DNA of 64,000 nucleotides from a phage (GCA_028909515.1 GCA_028909515.1_4811.1); one strand, 5' to 3'; shown: positions 20,045-33,545, counted from the first letter of the stretch. Notes: a model not told the origin generated them from the sequence alone. Made by a program: numbers and translations.

Positions 20045-22420
20045 TCAACCTTGCTTCGGTGAATTAGTAGGATTATTGAGTGCTCCATATGCTTGAGAGC
20101 AATCACCCTTCAACCACTCCTTGAATGAGTTTACATCCAATTCGTGAATTGAGTCGAAGCCGTTCCAACCGTTACCAAATGATGCTTGATAAGCTTCTTT
20201 CGCTTCTTCTGCTGAATCAAATCCAAGCATACACTTGTGTTCATCAAATTCGCCAGAATAATTATCATTTTGGTTAATGATGAATACTTTAGGCGACTTC
20301 ATATTTGGCCCAACAAAGCAGTCGACTTCATCACCATCAGCACCCTTGGTGCCTTTGATGAATCCGTAGTGGTGCGGCATCTTAACTGCCCATTCACCAT
20401 CAAGGCTGTTTCCCCTACGAATGCTGTTGCGAGGATTCTCAATACCAAGAATCATCCCGTGCAACTTCATCTTAGGTAGCGATGCGGCATCCATCTTCCC
20501 TACGTTGTGTCGCAAGTTGACGACATTTCCTTTTACGCTTGGAAGCGTGGACGGTTGCACCGACCTTGCATCTTTTTGAGGGTCAAAATCCACATCCTGA
20601 CCTTCTTTAAGGTAATAGTCAGCAATACCCTCCAGACCTTCTTTCAGTTGCGTTAGGACATCAACGTGATGGCTTGATTCATCATCGGTATCATCCATGT
20701 TAATCTCAACTGGTGCTCTGTCAGGGTTTTCTGCCAACTCACCACGCGCGGCACCTTCCGGCATAATACCAGTTTCGCTGTAGAACTGGCCGCCCATCTT
20801 GACAACGTCAGCCTTAGCCTGTTCAATATCGGCCTTGCCTTGCAGAACTTCACCAGCAGACTTGCCAAGCAACGCCATATTCTCTGGAGACATCCCTGGG
20901 GTTTCTTCTGCCGCGTCTTCCGGCAAACGGTTGTAGCCACTGTTTTTGTCGTCCTTGATGCGGTCGCGCTCTTCATCAGGGGAGATGACGCCAGCATCAA
21001 TGAGAGTCTTGCCAGTGTTCGCTCGTTTGTCGTTAATCTCTGCAAGCTGAGTAGCAGTAAGTGAACCAACTGGCTCCCATGCCACTTTAACGTCGACTTC
21101 AACACCTTCAGATTTCAAAAGGATTTTATAGTGACGGTCAAGAATCTTCGTCAAATCGTGCTGCTGACAAGTTTCCAATTCTTCGTGATAGCTGACCATT
21201 TCGAACTCACCAGTGGCGTTAAAGCCTTTAGGTGAAGTCCCTAACAGTTTTGTCGACGGAACTTTTGCGATTGCGGCCACCAACTGGTACTGGTTCATGA
21301 TGATGCTGTCGAAGTCTGACAAGTTGATGTCAAACTGGTCCATCTCTTCTTTCTGACCAAGCACTTTTACCGCATAGTTGTCGCGGTACTTAATCCACAT
21401 CATCAAACGTTCGGCAAACGACCGCTCATTGGCAATCGCCTTGTCAACGTCGGTCCGCAGCGTGGTTGTACGCTTAGACATCGCCAGCAATGGCGCTTCG
21501 TTAGCGGTACGTTCAGCGGCATAGATACGTTCATAAATCTGCTGAGTCAGAGGAATGCCGCCGTATATATAAGTCGGCTTGAGAATATCAGCTGGCTCAT
21601 CGTTGCGCAAGATGATTAGGTGGCTGCGATGATAACGCTGTCCACTGATCACCCAGTATTCTGGATCATAGAAATGCTGTGACGCAGGGTCTGCAGTGTT
21701 TTCAGACGTCAAGAATGGCATCATCCAATAAGGGTCAACCTGAATGATTCCCTTATAAGACCCCTTTGTCACACCATCGATGTTAAAAGGTTTGCTATAA
21801 TATTCTGGGTCATCGCTGCGCACATCAAATATGATGACACGGATGCCAAAAATATTCTTGAATCGTTCGGCTTCAACTAAGTGCTCTTTGATGTTAAATT
21901 CTTTATCAATTTGCTTCAGGCGTTCGCTTGCCTGCACAGACAATTCTGATTCAGAGCTTGATTTTACTTCCCAACCTTTACGTACTGCATCGCGGCCTAC
22001 CATTGAGCAAGCCTTATTCACCAGCCAGTGCTGCGCGATAATTGCGCAAGCTTGATAGCCGATGAATGATTGTGACAAGTACCAGTTTTGCAACTGAATA
22101 GGGACTGTGTATGGATTCACCTGCCCTTCTGAACTGATGTTCTTCAAAGCATTATCCATAACTTTTTTGGATACGGTTGCTGAATCTACTGAGCGACCTT
22201 TGATGATTGCAACACCGTCTCCGTTGATATCAGGCTCATATAAAGGGAAGTCATCAACCGTTTTAAAGGTCGGTCGATTGCTTTCAGTCTTTTCCCAGCG
22301 TTGACCGCTGCCGCGCCTTTCAAGGCGTTCAAACGGTGCCAATGGGTCGCCTGGCGGCATCTCCGCTGGTTCGGCTTCTGGTTGCGTCTTCTCCCAGAGT
22401 TTTATGCCAAGAATTTTCAT
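20045..22420 (-). CDS. Portal protein with a pyrophosphatase-like C-terminal domain
   Basis: Large ORF between terminase and the MuF-like gene. ATG at 22420 with AGGTGG upstream (track gives a TTG at 22453). C-terminus contains HHYGFIKGTKGADGDEVDCFVGP. Confidence 0.6.
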   Translation of the reverse strand: MKILGIKLWEKTQPEAEPAEMPPGDPLAPFERLERRGSGQRWEKTESNRPTFKTVDDFPLYEPDINGDGVAIIKGRSVDSATVSKKVMDNALKNISSEGQVNPYTVPIQLQNWYLSQSFIGYQACAIIAQHWLVNKACSMVGRDAVRKGWEVKSSSESELSVQASERLKQIDKEFNIKEHLVEAERFKNIFGIRVIIFDVRSDDPEYYSKPFNIDGVTKGSYKGIIQVDPYWMMPFLTSENTADPASQHFYDPEYWVISGQRYHRSHLIILRNDEPADILKPTYIYGGIPLTQQIYERIYAAERTANEAPLLAMSKRTTTLRTDVDKAIANERSFAERLMMWIKYRDNYAVKVLGQKEEMDQFDINLSDFDSIIMNQYQLVAAIAKVPSTKLLGTSPKGFNATGEFEMVSYHEELETCQQHDLTKILDRHYKILLKSEGVEVDVKVAWEPVGSLTATQLAEINDKRANTGKTLIDAGVISPDEERDRIKDDKNSGYNRLPEDAAEETPGMSPENMALLGKSAGEVLQGKADIEQAKADVVKMGGQFYSETGIMPEGAARGELAENPDRAPVEINMDDTDDESSHHVDVLTQLKEGLEGIADYYLKEGQDVDFDPQKDARSVQPSTLPSVKGNVVNLRHNVGKMDAASLPKMKLHGMILGIENPRNSIRRGNSLDGEWAVKMPHHYGFIKGTKGADGDEVDCFVGPNMKSPKVFIINQNDNYSGEFDEHKCMLGFDSAEEAKEAYQASFGNGWNGFDSIHELDVNSFKEWLKGDCSQAYGALNNPTNSPKQG

Positions 22421-22582
22421 TGTTAACGCCACCTGACAGTGAAAGGGAATCAATCTATATTATAAATATTCATGTGTTTGTAAGCAAATGATATGTATAG
22501 TAATCATAAATAGTTCATAAAATATTTTGCTTTTGTATCATTTTGAGTTATATTTTAGTTAACCAAACGAAAGGAGATTGAA

Positions 22583-22999
22583 ATGAGCACAACAATTGTA
22601 TTTGTCGTCCTTCATCAAGGCGAAGTAGTAAACGTATGCGAATATGAAGAGCTGGCAAAAGCCACTGCTGCGCGATATGAAGGTGCCACAGTTGACCCTT
22701 GGATTTTGGATGCGCGAAACGTGTTGCAGGCGACCATGGATGAATGGCTTTTAGGTCGCAAGGTGTATCCGGTTGAAAACATCGAATCCATTCAAGGCGA
22801 AACGGTATACTTTGAAGATGAATGCGTTCGCGGCATTGGTAAATTTATGGGATTGTGCCCATCTTCATCCAAAAATAAATTTTATCGTATTCAAGTTGAA
22901 GAAAACGATATGTTTGACAAAGTAACGCGCTCGATTGTTCCTGGCGGCGGCACTCCAATCTTTATGGCAGAATCAGACATCAAGGGGATTATCAAATGA
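22583..22999 (+). CDS. Hypothetical protein (moron in the late module)
   Basis: 138 aa. Strong AAAGGAGA site 6 nt before the ATG. Opposite strand to the flanking portal and terminase genes. Confidence 0.5.
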   Translation: MSTTIVFVVLHQGEVVNVCEYEELAKATAARYEGATVDPWILDARNVLQATMDEWLLGRKVYPVENIESIQGETVYFEDECVRGIGKFMGLCPSSSKNKFYRIQVEENDMFDKVTRSIVPGGGTPIFMAESDIKGIIK

Positions 23000-23235
23000 G
23001 AACGTTAACCGAACTCGATGTTTTGAAAGACGTTGCAGCCGCGCTAGGCGTAGAAGTATCCGAAAAGGCGACACTAGGTGCTTTGCGTCGGGATTTACTC
23101 GAAGCCGTTGACCGCAACGATTTTGACCGTAAGTGTATGCAAAAGAAGATTCGTCAGGCGGTAAGAGCGGGTAAGCGATTCCGTGCCAGGTCATTTGCTG
23201 CAAGAAAACTCGACCTTCAGCACGGAATGCTTTGA
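22996..23235 (+). CDS. Hypothetical small basic protein (moron)
   Basis: 79 aa, Arg/Lys-rich, start overlaps the stop of the 22583 gene. Confidence 0.4.
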   Translation: MRTLTELDVLKDVAAALGVEVSEKATLGALRRDLLEAVDRNDFDRKCMQKKIRQAVRAGKRFRARSFAARKLDLQHGML

Positions 23236-23238
23236 TTG

Positions 23239-24699
23239 TTAAAGGTTAGAGAAGAAGCCGGATGCTGCAACGATTGGTTTCATCAATGCCATGATTGCTG
23301 CGTCCGCTTTGTTAGGTGATTTAACTCCACGCTTTGCCATGTCCTTTTTGGATTCAACTTTGAACTTGCCAAGAACAGACGTATCTTTGCGCGGCGCTGA
23401 CATCTCAAAAAGAAACGTCTCAATCTCTTCAGTAGTCCAAGCTGGAATTCCAAGTTCTGGTATGCCATCTGTGTCAATTGAAATCAACTCATCAGTCGGA
23501 TATACGGCCTGCCCAGTCGCATACTCGTATGTCTTTCTGAATCTCTCTGCAATCTCAGTCCACTTTTGCGCTTTTATGTTTGCGAAATGGTCTTTATTGA
23601 GTATTTCAACGTGTGGTAGTTCAAGAAAAACGTCATCAGGATCATCAACAGACCCTTGCGCGTTGAACGCATTAAATTCGATTCTTGGAAATGATGGATT
23701 TTCATGTATCGCATACTCGTTTAGTTCATCAAATTTTGAACCAGCAAAAGCGCCGACACCGATGGCGTCATAAGTTATAGAAGCGCCAAATGTAAGCGCA
23801 TCTTTCCAAACTCCGCTTGCCGATTTCAACAATTCATCTTCCAGACCTTCCCATGTCTTGATGCCGCGCAATACGTTTCCTGTAACGAATGCAGTGGCGT
23901 TAAGGTCGTCGCCATCGTCCGCTACGTCAAAGCCTATACGGTTAGACCCTGACAAACTCCAACCCAGCGTAGGGTGTTTGTGGAGGTTAAGCGCGGCCTT
24001 AACGAATGCGCGGTTGATTACAGATTTATCGCCGCCAGTCTTCGGCACGCCGCCATAAACGTGCTCTGCCTTTTTCGGGTCACGCTCGTACATGCCTGCA
24101 ATAACGTCCAGCATTGTTTGCGACAAGAATGGATTGTCTTGCCAGTTTATCTTTTTGACAATGGCATTCTTCGGCGGTCGCATGACAAAGTTTTGATAGA
24201 CGAAATCGGCCTCTTCATCAGGGTTAAAGATAATCCATATTTCGGACCCTTCTTTACGGATTGTCGGCTCAATAATGTCCCACTGTTCTTCAGTAAGCGC
24301 GTGCGCTTCTTCCAGCCAAAGAACATCAACGCCTTCTGTTGATTTGATTTCATCAACGTTACGTGCGATACCATAAAATAGAAATTCAGATTTAGTTCTT
24401 TTGTGTTCGATAGAGTTCTTTAATAAATTGAACTCATCTTTAAAATCAGAAATCTCTATTTTGTCTTTTAATAGAGTATATACAGATTCAGAAATCTTGT
24501 TCTGGAATTGTCGAACGCAAAGGAATTTTAATTTGAAGTTTGCCGCCAAATAAATAGCAAAACCAGCGGCATCGTGCGATTTGGAAGATGCACGACCGCC
24601 GTATATTACTTTGTATCGCGCTTTTGTCTTCCAGACTTCTTTTAAAGCAGGATTCAACTGGTACATGAATTTCCAATTATGTGTTAATATTTTATTCAT
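23239..24699 (-). CDS. Terminase large subunit
   Basis: 486 aa. Walker A VIYGGRASSKS and Walker B-like VLWLEEA in the N-terminal ATPase; acidic nuclease-like C-terminal half. Confidence 0.85.
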   Translation of the reverse strand: MNKILTHNWKFMYQLNPALKEVWKTKARYKVIYGGRASSKSHDAAGFAIYLAANFKLKFLCVRQFQNKISESVYTLLKDKIEISDFKDEFNLLKNSIEHKRTKSEFLFYGIARNVDEIKSTEGVDVLWLEEAHALTEEQWDIIEPTIRKEGSEIWIIFNPDEEADFVYQNFVMRPPKNAIVKKINWQDNPFLSQTMLDVIAGMYERDPKKAEHVYGGVPKTGGDKSVINRAFVKAALNLHKHPTLGWSLSGSNRIGFDVADDGDDLNATAFVTGNVLRGIKTWEGLEDELLKSASGVWKDALTFGASITYDAIGVGAFAGSKFDELNEYAIHENPSFPRIEFNAFNAQGSVDDPDDVFLELPHVEILNKDHFANIKAQKWTEIAERFRKTYEYATGQAVYPTDELISIDTDGIPELGIPAWTTEEIETFLFEMSAPRKDTSVLGKFKVESKKDMAKRGVKSPNKADAAIMALMKPIVAASGFFSNL

Positions 24700-24775
24700 A
24701 TTATAGTTTGCTTGTACAAGCTATATCAAGTAAAATTATGATTCCAGCTTAGTAGTGGATAAAGGGTGATCTTTC

Positions 24776-24802
24776 GGCCAGATTTTTTCTGGCCATTTTT
24801 TT
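24776..24802 (+). terminator. Rho-independent terminator-like hairpin
   Basis: GGCCAG, 7 nt loop, CTGGCC, then ATTTTTTT. Lies in the divergent region between terminase and the plus-strand operon. Confidence 0.5.
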
Positions 24803-32617: not shown

Positions 32618-33545
32618 TCGAATGGCGGCCCTTCGGGGTCGCTTTTCATAGTGCAAATTGGTGGATTATGAATACTCTTATTCTCATCGCTACGTTGTCC
32701 ATCGGAAGTGGTCGCACCTTATCCCTTTATGACCATAGTGCAAATTGCGCTTACCCTACGCGCGTTGCGGCGATAGTTAATAGTGCAAATAAGATGCTAT
32801 TCGAGACTTGCTGGCGGGTCGATAACGAGAAAGGTCGGGTAGTCTTAGGTTATAGTGCAAATCTGCTGGTGGAGTCGTTCGATTGGACGGCTGAAGGTCG
32901 TAAATTGTTACGTAAAGTGACTAAAAGATGACTTATAATAATACACTTTCTAACGCGTTTATGGTTGCAACCTTCCCCGTCGTATTACCGACGGCCCTAG
33001 AAGTGGAGAAAATGTGTTCTAGGGCCGTTTTATAGTGCAAATTGGCTAGTGGCGGGAGAATTGCTCGCCTTCTTTGGCCGCCTCTCCAAAATCCTTGTAG
33101 AAATCGTCCATAGAACGGCCCATTTTACTATTGCCGTTTTCATCAATCATCGTGATGCCGTAGATGATATTCAGTTCACGAATAGCATTAAGCTTGGCTG
33201 ACGCCGCGACTTCTGGATCACGCACAAGCTTGACCAAATTGTGAATTGCACCTTTTACGCTCCACAAATCCTTGAGTGGCATCTCTTCCATACGCTTTTT
33301 GAAGCGCATTTTGTAGTATGGGTTGCGTTGCGCGCAAAGGATTCGCTGGCCAGTGTAGTTATCCGTTGCAACTTCCATTCCAAATACTAGTGCAAAAGCT
33401 GCGCGCATGTCATGGCCCTGAATAACAAGGTCAATGAACTCATCGAATAAAGCCTGATTGTGCTCTGCAAATCGCGGGTCTTCAAAGTCTTCAGGCATCG
33501 CTACATAATCTTGACTCATAGTGCAAAATCCCATAGTGCAAATTA
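32336..33545 (+). repeat. Same-orientation array of an 11 bp motif, ATAGTGCAAAT, at least 8 copies
   Basis: Copies near 32336 (variant), 32351 (variant), 32648, 32735, 32780, 32852, 33032, 33518 (variant) and 33534. Present in coding and non-coding DNA and in different frames. Confidence 0.6.
33046..33534 (-). CDS. Hypothetical early protein
   Basis: 162 aa. The start region overlaps two copies of the 11 bp motif; an alternative ATG lies at 33519. Confidence 0.45.
   Translation of the reverse strand: MGFCTMSQDYVAMPEDFEDPRFAEHNQALFDEFIDLVIQGHDMRAAFALVFGMEVATDNYTGQRILCAQRNPYYKMRFKKRMEEMPLKDLWSVKGAIHNLVKLVRDPEVAASAKLNAIRELNIIYGITMIDENGNSKMGRSMDDFYKDFGEAAKEGEQFSRH

What the first reader, a model, noticed from the sequence alone, without database searches (positions are those of the whole stretch)
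22454..23235. Two opposite-strand genes inserted between portal and terminase
Two plus-strand ORFs, the first with a strong AAAGGAGA site and an AT-rich upstream region, interrupt the minus-strand late operon. Such morons often carry fitness or defence-related cargo. No small terminase gene is evident next to the large terminase; these ORFs are in the wrong orientation to be one by normal synteny.
Basis: partly seen in the sequence, partly recalled or inferred. Interest (0 to 1): 0.5.

Follow-up and report, generated by a model that had tools for sequence, protein, structure and literature searches.

The report
Conserved two-gene cassette between portal and terminase
The two opposite-strand genes are real and expressed, but they are conserved genes of unknown function found in every related E. 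coli phage of this genus, not newly acquired cargo and not the missing small terminase, which lies 8 kb away.

Summary
Two plus-strand genes (138 aa at 22583-22999, 79 aa at 22996-23235) lie between the portal and TerL of a Wifcevirus-type E. coli myophage. They follow a 78% AT spacer and an AAAGGAGA ribosome-binding site.

The moron reading does not hold:
- Both genes are in all 29 Wifcevirus records at 95-99% aa identity.
- They are under purifying selection (dN/dS 0.11 and 0.06) and have ordinary G+C.
- They recur in five more distant lineages. There they sit in a larger opposite-strand cassette that also carries a Trypsin_2 lipoprotein and a DUF2786 protein.
- The 138-aa family is phrog_5124. 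Its Pbunavirus homologue occupies the same portal-proximal position in 298 records.

Neither gene is TerS. A clear homologue of the E217 small terminase (PDB 7UXE, E 6e-34) sits at 33046-33534.

Neither protein was found in published virion mass spectrometry. A C-terminally tagged 138-aa protein is expressed and tolerated.

The predicted folds are generic: an acidic two-domain protein with an SH3/Tudor-like barrel, and a basic helix-loop-long-helix protein.

The one unusual feature is transcriptional. There is no terminator between the cassette and the convergent TerL gene. A conserved plus-strand terminator lies just past TerL, so the cassette transcript probably runs antisense across TerL.

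Verdict: ordinary, already annotated, low interest.

The parts
22421..22582 (.). Divergent control region between the portal and the cassette. It holds two back-to-back sigma-70-like promoters: minus strand 22487->22459 (TTGCTT-17-TATAAT) for the portal, and plus strand 22527-22554 (TTGCTT-16-TATATT) for the cassette. The RBS AAAGGAGA is at 22570-22577.
   Evidence: The motif TTGCYT-N15-18-TATAWT occurs 7 times in the window against 0.26 expected, always intergenic and correctly oriented. Only 4 of 129 positions vary among 8 relatives whose synonymous divergence is about 0.25. The region is 78% AT. Relatives L016 and L017 have 10-11/12 sigma-70 matches at the same place. Promoter activity is inferred, not shown.
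22583..22999 (+). Gene for a 138-aa acidic protein (pI 4.7). It belongs to the phrog_5124 family and is always the first, portal-proximal gene of the cassette.
22996..23235 (+). Gene for a 79-aa basic protein (pI 10.3). It has an acidic N-terminal helix-loop-helix (HeH/SAP-like pattern) followed by a long arginine/lysine-rich helix, with an invariant Cys47.
   Evidence: dN/dS is 0.060. It is present in 29/29 Wifcevirus records. Homologues occur in L003, L015, L016, L017 and Pantoea phage Kyle. The AF2 model has pLDDT 85.6, with helices at residues 6-17 and 27-78. There is no significant Pfam, PDB or Foldseek match.
23239..24699 (-). Large terminase (TerL), convergent with the cassette. Its stop codon is 3 nt from the stop of the 79-aa gene. 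The probable true start is 24666.
   Evidence: Terminase_3 E 3.2e-37 and phrog_3717 E 5e-75. Relatives mostly annotate a 475-aa product. Variable sites by codon position are 11/2/162, so there is no sign of an overlapping plus-strand gene.
24700..24729 (-). TerL's own sigma-70-like promoter, TTGATA-18-TATAAT (11 of 12 matches).
   Evidence: The same TTGAnn-18-TATAAT arrangement lies upstream of TerL in L003, L016, L017 and Kyle.
24776..24802 (+). Plus-strand intrinsic terminator (GGCCAGA-loop-TCTGGCC followed by ATTTTTTT). It lies just beyond the 5' end of TerL and is the probable 3' end of the cassette transcript.
   Evidence: It is annotated as a terminator in WFC and WFH. Among Wifcevirus relatives the stem is invariant while the loop varies. 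L003 keeps the hairpin through a compensatory change, GGCCAGG..CCTGGCC. L016 and L017 have unrelated plus-strand terminators at the same position. No conserved plus-strand promoter lies between the cassette promoter and this site.
20045..22420 (-). Portal protein with a C-terminal InPase domain, transcribed divergently from the cassette.
   Evidence: Phage_portal_3 E 4.5e-88 and InPase E 4.4e-46. phrog_4660 scores 1266 bits.
33046..33534 (-). It lies about 8.3 kb from TerL.
   Evidence: phmmer against the PDB gives the E217 small terminase 7UXE, E 6.1e-34, query residues 7-152. Separation of TerS and TerL is published for the related phage E217 (PMC9611059).

Best explanation
The two genes are a conserved, independently transcribed operon for two small non-virion proteins. 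They are the reduced form of an old opposite-strand accessory cassette that sits between TerL and the portal throughout the Pbunavirus-like myophages.

Shown:
- Both are real genes under purifying selection, present in every Wifcevirus.
- The 138-aa family (phrog_5124) keeps the portal-proximal position from Wifcevirus to Pbunavirus.
- The 79-aa family accompanies it in all the enterobacterial-type lineages examined.
- Neither is the small terminase, which is encoded at 33046-33534.
- Published data show the 138-aa protein is made during infection and tolerates a C-terminal tag. Neither protein was detected in virion preparations.

Inferred:
- Host sigma-70 RNA polymerase starts at about 22561, from a promoter set back-to-back with the portal promoter.
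- The two genes are translated from strong ribosome-binding sites.
- Because no terminator separates them from the convergent TerL gene, the transcript continues antisense through all of TerL to the conserved terminator at 24776-24802.
- The proteins then act inside the infected cell. One is an acidic SH3/Tudor-like-barrel protein and the other a basic HeH-like helical protein. The most likely role is nucleic-acid or protein binding in gene-expression control or host takeover, not virion building.
- The antisense tail may hold down TerL expression while the cassette promoter is active.
For: - Conservation within the genus: 29/29 Wifcevirus records carry both genes.
- Selection: dN/dS is 0.106 and 0.060. 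Variable sites by codon position are 20/10/73 and 6/0/21.
- Wider conservation: the cassette is present in L003, L015, L016, L017 and Kyle, with the 138-aa family always first and the 79-aa family always present.
- Pbunavirus link: phrog_5124 is hit by all 7 family members. hhalign to the Pbunavirus portal-proximal gene gives 97.6%, E 3.3e-12. That gene is in 298 phage records.
- TerS is elsewhere in the window.
- Composition is ordinary.
- Signals: promoter motif 7 hits against 0.26 expected, with a nearly invariant spacer. There is no terminator between the cassette and TerL in the window, L002, L003, L016 or L017. A plus-strand terminator lies just beyond TerL in 4 of 5 lineages, once with a compensatory stem change.
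- Virion mass spectrometry: gp34 and gp35 are absent from the 33 proteins detected in vB_Eco4M-7. Their homologues are absent from the 28 detected in ECML-117 (PMC7048862).
- Tagging: the gp35-HiBiT phage gave 336 plaques against 332 for the untagged phage. I calculated its signal by subtracting rows of Supplementary Table 2. It is about 3.1e6 RLU above the untagged control, against 1.08e7 for the tagged portal (PMC11074155).
- Folds and charge.
Against: - No function is demonstrated for either protein.
- No Wifcevirus transcriptome exists, so the promoter, the timing and the antisense read-through are all inferred.
- Kyle shows no plus-strand terminator beyond TerL in my scan.
- In Pbunavirus and MTx a terminator sits between the cassette and TerL. 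The antisense arrangement is therefore not ancestral to the whole clade.
- The same promoter motif also precedes structural and replication genes, so it does not indicate timing.
- The fixed position next to the portal could instead reflect a role in head assembly.
Confidence: 0.6

Rival explanations
1. Head-assembly or packaging accessory factor. The 138-aa protein, perhaps together with the 79-aa protein, is a non-virion helper of portal, procapsid or terminase function. Its gene has stayed beside the portal for that reason and is co-regulated with it through the shared divergent promoter region.
For: The 138-aa family has kept the same portal-proximal, divergent position from Wifcevirus to Pbunavirus, across about 36% TerL divergence. 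The shared control region is nearly invariant. Absence from virions (PMC7048862) is compatible with a chaperone-like or scaffold-like helper.
Against: No homologue of either family is detectable in MTx or Pluto, which share TerL, the portal-InPase fusion and head genes. The rest of the cassette in relatives is accessory in character: a Trypsin_2 lipoprotein, DUF2786 and a methyltransferase. A C-terminal tag has no effect on plaque yield. There is no similarity to any known assembly protein.
Confidence: 0.2
2. Moron or anti-defence cargo. On this view the genes form an add-on transcription unit that improves fitness on particular hosts, for example by inhibiting a host defence system.
For: The unit has its own promoter-like site and strong RBS, lies on the opposite strand and encodes small proteins with no known family. 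The position is a plasticity zone whose gene content varies between genera, from 1 to about 15 genes. Conserved anti-defence genes do exist in phages.
Against: The genes are not variable among close relatives: 29/29 records carry them. The 138-aa family is present in 298 Pbunavirus records, close to the ~310 that carry a TerL of 60-80% identity. G+C and synonymous divergence match the neighbouring genes. PADLOC gives no hit. The Pbunavirus anti-defence island mapped experimentally is a different locus, gp80-88 (PMC13307970).
Confidence: 0.12
3. The unit acts mainly at the RNA level. Its main role would be to send convergent, antisense transcription through TerL (and to receive TerL read-through), so that terminase production is timed. 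The two small proteins would be secondary.
For: The convergent stop codons are 3 nt apart here and overlap in L002, L003, L015, L016 and L017. No intervening terminator is found. A positionally conserved plus-strand terminator lies just past TerL in 4 of 5 lineages. No other conserved plus-strand promoter lies upstream of that terminator.
Against: Both proteins are under clear purifying selection, so they matter in their own right. Synonymous sites of TerL are as variable as those of the portal, which gives no sign of added RNA-level constraint. Pbunavirus and MTx terminate before TerL. There are no expression data.
Confidence: 0.15
4. One of the two ORFs is the small terminase.
For: No TerS gene lies next to TerL. 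The 79-aa protein is small, helical and basic.
Against: A bona fide TerS homologue is at 33046-33534 (E 6e-34 to PDB 7UXE). Profiles of both families find no terminase in the PDB, Pfam or PHROGs. TerS-TerL separation is already documented for the related phage E217 (PMC9611059).
Confidence: 0.01

Closest known systems
phrog_5124 / Pbunavirus portal-proximal hypothetical protein (for example fHoPae01 FHP_033c, 133 aa)
   Same: It is homologous to the 138-aa protein: hhalign 97.6%, E 3.3e-12, 116 aligned columns, and all 7 family members hit the PHROG. It has the same size and the same position and orientation, as the first gene divergent from the portal. It is present in nearly all records of its genus (298).
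   Different: Identity is only about 27%. HMMER alone does not link the two groups. In Pbunavirus it heads a cassette of about 15 genes that ends at a terminator before TerL. Function is unknown there as well.
Opposite-strand cassette between portal and TerL in the Kylevirus-like lineages (Pantoea phage Kyle and metagenomic contigs L003, L015, L016, L017)
   Same: The layout is the same: portal, divergent promoter region, 138-aa family gene first, 79-aa family gene present, and a last gene convergent with TerL and overlapping its stop codon.
   Different: These relatives also carry a Trypsin_2-type lipoprotein between the two families, a DUF2786/DUF7168 protein next to TerL, and 0-3 further small genes. 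Wifcevirus keeps only the two genes discussed here.
Phage morons (lambdoid-type add-on transcription units)
   Same: It is a self-contained unit with its own promoter-like site, set among morphogenesis genes.
   Different: Morons are defined by patchy presence among close relatives, often atypical composition, and their own terminator. Here presence is universal, composition is ordinary and no terminator follows the unit.
E217-type split terminase arrangement (TerS far from TerL; Lokareddy et al. 2022, as cited in PMC9611059)
   Same: The window has the same arrangement: TerL stands alone and a TerS homologue lies about 8 kb away. This explains why no TerS is seen next to TerL.
   Different: This concerns the surroundings, not the two genes themselves.
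Convergent or antisense transcription used for timing in phages (for example the antisense RNAs mapped in Pseudomonas phages, PMC10914365)
   Same: Convergent promoters with no terminator between them, and a terminator placed beyond the opposing gene.
   Different: Here it is only predicted from sequence. Such antisense RNAs have been mapped in other phages, but none was listed for the Pbunavirus 14-1 in that study.

Membership tests
Small terminase (TerS) | Sequence or profile similarity to a known TerS | tested here: not met
   Family profiles searched against the PDB find no terminase. Pfam and PHROGs give no terminase hits.
Small terminase (TerS) | It is the phage's only candidate for the role | tested here: not met
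   Window 33046-33534 (-) matches the E217 TerS, PDB 7UXE, at E 6.1e-34.
Small terminase (TerS) | Ring oligomer that binds pac DNA and TerL | not testable with these tools
Moron | Own promoter, separate from the surrounding operon | tested here: met
   The TTGCTT-16-TATATT site at 22527-22554 belongs to a motif found 7 times against 0.26 expected. Relatives have 10-11/12 sigma-70 matches at the same place. Activity is inferred.
Moron | Own terminator directly after the unit | tested here: not met
   No terminator-like site lies between 23235 and 23239 or within the cassette. The next plus-strand terminator is at 24776.
Moron | Present in some close relatives and absent in others | tested here: not met
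   Present in 29 of 29 Wifcevirus records and in all five divergent lineages examined.
Moron | Atypical base composition or divergence | tested here: not met
   G+C is 43.6% and 49.6% against 46.1% for the window. pS is 0.285 and 0.198 against 0.24-0.26 for the portal and TerL.
Known anti-phage defence or counter-defence proteins | Similarity to a catalogued defence-system protein | tested here: not met
   PADLOC gave 0 families for six members of the two families at E <= 1. PADLOC covers defence rather than anti-defence proteins, so this is weak evidence.
phrog_5124 (138-aa protein) | Profile match of the protein and its relatives | tested here: met
   7 of 7 family members match, best E 1.9e-5. 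The Pbunavirus member matches the PHROG at E 1.4e-88 and aligns with the family by hhalign at 97.6%.
phrog_5124 (138-aa protein) | Shared genomic position | tested here: met
   It is the first gene divergent from the portal in the window, L002, L003, L005, L015-L017 and Pbunavirus L018.
SH3-like barrel (Tudor / Sm / KOW) fold, C-terminal half of the 138-aa protein | Significant structural superposition | tested here: inconclusive
SAP / HeH / Rho_N-type DNA-binding motif (79-aa protein) | Profile or fold match to the motif | tested here: inconclusive
   No Pfam hit for SAP or Rho_N at E <= 1. Foldseek against the PDB has nothing below E 2.6, and the SAP domains of MANF and CDNF appear only at E 8-9.5. 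Only the helix-loop-helix pattern and the sequence pattern resemble the motif.
Type II toxin-antitoxin-like pair | Obligate adjacency of the two genes | tested here: not met
   In L003, L016, L017 and Kyle a Trypsin_2 gene separates the two families.

The most novel reading that the evidence does not exclude
In the Wifcevirus/Kylevirus branch the terminator that separates the cassette from TerL in Pbunavirus and MTx has been lost. Termination now occurs beyond TerL. The cassette mRNA would then carry a 1.5-kb antisense tail covering the whole terminase gene, and TerL read-through would cover the cassette. This convergent pair, possibly together with the basic 79-aa protein acting on the nearly invariant divergent promoter region, would form a timing switch for DNA packaging. 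That could matter in phages reported to have unusually short infection cycles.
Probability: 0.2. Interest if true: 0.5.

Novelty: already known. Interest (0 to 1): 0.22.

Why it matters
There are three practical outcomes for annotation:
- The small terminase of Wifcevirus phages can be assigned. It is homologous to E217 TerS and lies about 8 kb from TerL.
- The two genes should not be treated as strain-specific cargo.
- The 138-aa protein can be linked to a gene family, phrog_5124, found in nearly all records of the therapeutically used Pbunavirus phages.

A gene family kept at one position beside the portal across two genera, with no known function, is a reasonable target for a knockout. The predicted antisense arrangement over TerL can be tested cheaply with one strand-specific RNA-seq experiment. 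None of this is surprising to a phage specialist.

Tried and rejected
- Small terminase: rejected. A search of the PDB with concatenated window ORFs found the real TerS homologue elsewhere.
- Recent horizontal acquisition: rejected on conservation, composition and synonymous divergence.
- Toxin-antitoxin pair: rejected because the two families are not adjacent in relatives.
- Known defence proteins: PADLOC is empty.
- Deeper homology for the 138-aa family:
  - the word-indexed search gave 9 close proteins;
  - the exhaustive HMMER search of 1.84 billion representatives gave only 4 real relatives;
  - the PDB profile search gave only noise;
  - BFVD returned only the family itself;
  - the afdb50 library was unavailable.
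- Deeper homology for the 79-aa family:
  - 2 proteins with the single sequence and 4 with a profile;
  - IMG/VR returned only 4 Wifcevirus contigs;
  - Foldseek against the PDB returned nothing significant.
- The search for related loci with the broad 138-aa alignment failed, because no stretch was conserved enough to search with.
- Homologues in MTx, Pluto or other Pbunavirus cassette genes: none found by HMM or hhalign, apart from FHP_033c.
- Overlapping plus-strand genes inside TerL (160-aa and 122-aa ORFs): rejected. TerL third-codon positions vary freely, at 11/2/162 by codon position.
- Rfam and tRNA scans of the window: empty.
- The plus-strand promoter-like site at 24713-24742, which could have produced a short RNA ending at the terminator: its -35 element is not conserved among relatives.
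- Short inverted repeats in the control region: too short and AT-rich to interpret.
- The E217 terminase paper itself and the supplementary tables of the 14-1 transcriptome paper are not held.

Full report
**Observation.** One runs 22583-22999 (138 aa, ATG). The other runs 22996-23235 (79 aa, ATG) and overlaps the first by ATGA. AAAGGAGA lies at 22570-22577, 5 nt upstream of the first ATG, and the spacer 22454-22582 is 78% AT. To the left, on the minus strand, is a portal protein (Phage_portal_3, E 4.5e-88) fused to a C-terminal InPase domain. To the right, also on the minus strand, is TerL (Terminase_3, E 3.2e-37). The stop codons of the 79-aa gene and of TerL are 3 nt apart.

**What the window is.** The region 19000-26000 matches 29 phage records at 91-97% nucleotide identity. 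All are Wifcevirus-type Escherichia or Shigella myophages such as WFC, WFH, FEC19, ECML-117, vB_Eco4M-7 and Bas98-101. The BASEL paper describes this genus as a distant relative of Pbunavirus (PMC11990801).

**The genes are real and conserved, not variable.**
- Both proteins are encoded in all 29 records at 95-99% aa identity. Every annotated record calls both genes.
- In an alignment of 8 relatives, dN/dS is 0.106 for the 138-aa gene and 0.060 for the 79-aa gene, against 0.014 for TerL and the portal. Variable sites by codon position are 20/10/73 and 6/0/21.
- G+C (43.6% and 49.6% against 46.1% for the window) and synonymous divergence match the neighbouring genes.

**The cassette is old.** More distant relatives found through the protein searches show the same architecture. 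The portal lies on one strand, followed by a divergent spacer and then an opposite-strand cassette whose last gene is convergent with TerL and overlaps its stop codon.

| Lineage | Cassette genes | Notes |
|---|---|---|
| Wifcevirus-like contigs | 2 | the two genes discussed here |
| L003 | 4 | 137 aa, Trypsin_2 lipoprotein, 79 aa, DUF2786/DUF7168 |
| Pantoea phage Kyle | 5 | |
| L016 | 5 | |
| L015 | 6 | |
| L017 | 7 | |
| Serratia phage MTx | 7 | |
| Pbunavirus fHoPae01 | about 15 | |
| Luteibacter phage Pluto | 1 | |

- The 138-aa family is always the first, portal-proximal gene. The 79-aa family is present in every enterobacterial-type lineage.
- All seven diverse members of the 138-aa family hit phrog_5124. 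The Pbunavirus portal-proximal gene FHP_033c is that PHROG (E 1.4e-88).
- FHP_033c aligns with the family by hhalign at 97.6% probability, E 3.3e-12, and occurs full-length in 298 phage records.
- Neither family is detectable in MTx or Pluto, and the 79-aa family is not detectable in Pbunavirus.
- TerL is flanked by opposite-strand genes on both sides in every relative. It is therefore better seen as a single-gene island with its own promoter than as part of an operon that was interrupted.

**Not the small terminase.** A PDB search with concatenated window ORFs found one strong match. Window 33046-33534 (minus strand, 162 aa) matches the E217 small terminase, PDB 7UXE, at E 6.1e-34 over residues 7-152. 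A review states that E217 TerS is encoded about 58 kb from TerL (PMC9611059). Separated terminase genes are therefore a known trait of this clade. Profiles of the two cassette families find no terminase in the PDB, Pfam or PHROGs.

**What the proteins look like.**
- The 138-aa protein is acidic; the family pI range is 4.5-4.9. Its AlphaFold2 model is confident (pLDDT 85.9, pTM 0.75). It has an N-terminal beta-beta-alpha-beta unit and a C-terminal small beta-barrel.
- An exhaustive HMMER search of 1.84 billion representative proteins finds only four real relatives, so the family is narrow.
- The 79-aa protein is basic (pI 10.3). Its N-terminal half is acidic and its C-terminal half has pI 12. 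The model (pLDDT 85.6) shows a helix at residues 6-17, a loop, and one long helix at 27-78.
- The N-terminal sequence pattern resembles HeH/SAP/Rho_N motifs, but no profile or fold search supports this significantly.
- PADLOC has no hit for either family.

**Expression signals.**
- The 162-bp spacer between the probable portal start (22420) and the cassette is almost invariant: 4 of 129 scored positions vary among relatives whose synonymous divergence is about 0.25.
- It holds two back-to-back promoter-like sites of one type: TTGCTT-17-TATAAT towards the portal and TTGCTT-16-TATATT towards the cassette.
- The pattern TTGCYT-N15-18-TATAWT occurs 7 times in the window against 0.26 expected. It is always intergenic and correctly oriented, and it precedes structural genes and replication genes alike. 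It therefore marks a promoter class but not a temporal class.
- TerL has its own site, TTGATA-18-TATAAT (11 of 12 matches). The same TTGAnn-18-TATAAT arrangement recurs in L003, L016, L017 and Kyle.
- No terminator-like site lies between the cassette and TerL on either strand.
- A plus-strand intrinsic terminator lies at 24776-24794 plus a T-tract, just past the 5' end of TerL and just before the next plus-strand promoter.
  - Among Wifcevirus relatives its stem is invariant while the loop varies.
  - L003 keeps the hairpin through a compensatory pair change.
  - L016 and L017 have unrelated plus-strand terminators at the same position.
- No conserved plus-strand promoter lies between the cassette promoter and this terminator.
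- The simplest reading is that the cassette transcript runs antisense across the whole TerL gene. This is an inference.
- In Pbunavirus and MTx a terminator sits between the cassette and TerL instead. Kyle shows none beyond TerL in my scan.

**Published experiments.**
- Mass spectrometry of vB_Eco4M-7 and ECML-117 preparations detected 33 and 28 proteins, including the portal. It did not detect the 79-aa or 138-aa products (gp34 and gp35; PI34_gp32 and gp33) (PMC7048862).
- In a synthetic-genome study of vB_Eco4M-7, gp35 (138 aa) was among 20 tagging targets, which included genes chosen for lying immediately after a transcription start site. A C-terminal HiBiT tag gave 336 plaques against 332 for the untagged phage (PMC11074155).
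- Subtracting rows of Supplementary Table 2, as I did, puts the gp35 signal about 3.1e6 RLU above the untagged control in strain ATCC 43888. The tagged portal gave 1.08e7. In strain Ec134 the gp35 signal exceeded the portal's. The protein is therefore made during infection.
- In Pbunavirus, the experimentally mapped anti-defence island is gp80-88 of phage 14-1, which is a different locus (PMC13307970).

**Interpretation.**
- The best-supported account is a conserved, independently transcribed operon for two small intracellular proteins. It is the minimal remnant of an ancestral accessory cassette.
- The acidic barrel protein and the basic HeH-like protein most plausibly bind protein or nucleic acid in a regulatory or host-takeover role. 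I hold that part loosely.
- The main rival is an assembly or packaging helper. The fixed position beside the portal favours it. Absence from MTx and Pluto and tolerance of the tag argue against it.
- The moron or anti-defence reading is weak. The TerS reading is refuted.
- The only feature that goes beyond routine annotation is the predicted antisense coverage of TerL in the Wifcevirus/Kylevirus branch.

**Verdict.** These genes are already present, as hypothetical proteins, in 29 GenBank records, and one of them has been tagged experimentally. Interest is low. Useful by-products are the location of TerS, the link of the 138-aa protein to phrog_5124 and its Pbunavirus counterparts, and a testable prediction about convergent transcription over TerL.

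Noticed in passing
window 33046-33534 (-): This 162-aa ORF is a clear homologue of the E217 small terminase (PDB 7UXE, E 6e-34). It is the last gene of a long minus-strand block and lies about 8.3 kb from TerL. The Wifcevirus paper I read (PMC7048862) lists only the large terminase subunit among predicted functions.
   Followed up: yes
window 20045-22420 (-): The portal protein carries a C-terminal InPase domain (PF18823, residues 660-782, E 4.4e-46). The fusion is shared with the relatives L003, L004, L005 and L017. Luteibacter phage Pluto annotates its portal-sized gene as an inorganic pyrophosphatase.
   Followed up: partly
window 3387, 17752, 22487, 44783, 45971 (-); 22527, 24823 (+): The promoter-like motif TTGCYT-N15-18-TATAWT occurs 7 times against 0.26 expected by shuffling. 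Every site is intergenic and oriented towards the downstream gene. The motif precedes structural genes and replication genes alike.
   Followed up: partly
window 24776-24802 (+); L003 11601-11618; L016 10769-10796; L017 12575-12597: A plus-strand intrinsic terminator sits just beyond the 5' end of the minus-strand TerL gene. Its position is conserved across lineages while its sequence turns over, and one compensatory stem change is seen. Pbunavirus and MTx instead have a terminator between TerL and the cassette.
   Followed up: partly
between window 24802 and 24803; L001 8816-9046: Mansfield carries a roughly 260-bp insertion with a 76-aa ORF right after that terminator; vB_Eco4M-7, ECML-117, TH32 and TH35 match this region in two pieces, consistent with the same insertion. 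The window lacks it. This is the genuinely variable, moron-like element near TerL. The 76-aa product in vB_Eco4M-7 (gp32, 7.8 kDa) was detected by mass spectrometry with a high score (PMC7048862).
   Followed up: partly
window 24666-24699 (-): The long TerL start (ATG 24699, 486 aa) directly abuts the -10 hexamer of the TerL promoter-like site. The start at 24666 (475 aa), used in most annotated relatives, is more plausible.
   Followed up: partly
L005 (GCA_018093385.1, contig ABADYA010000024.1, 68.6 kb): An assembly labelled Escherichia coli contains a contig of whole-phage length that is a divergent Wifcevirus-like genome. Its 138-aa protein is 84% identical to the window's. It could be contamination or a carrier-state phage.
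   Followed up: no
L004 8001-8471: In this metagenomic Wifcevirus-like contig the homologue of the 138-aa gene is frameshifted near codon 97, giving a 156-aa product. It could be a sequencing error or a pseudogene.
   Followed up: no
L003 8411-9019; L016 7353-7952; L017 8426-8998; L002 8414-8959: Relatives carry a Trypsin_2-type serine protease between the two families. It has a lipoprotein signal peptide with a lipobox (LAGC). L015 retains only a 45-aa remnant of the signal peptide.
   Followed up: no
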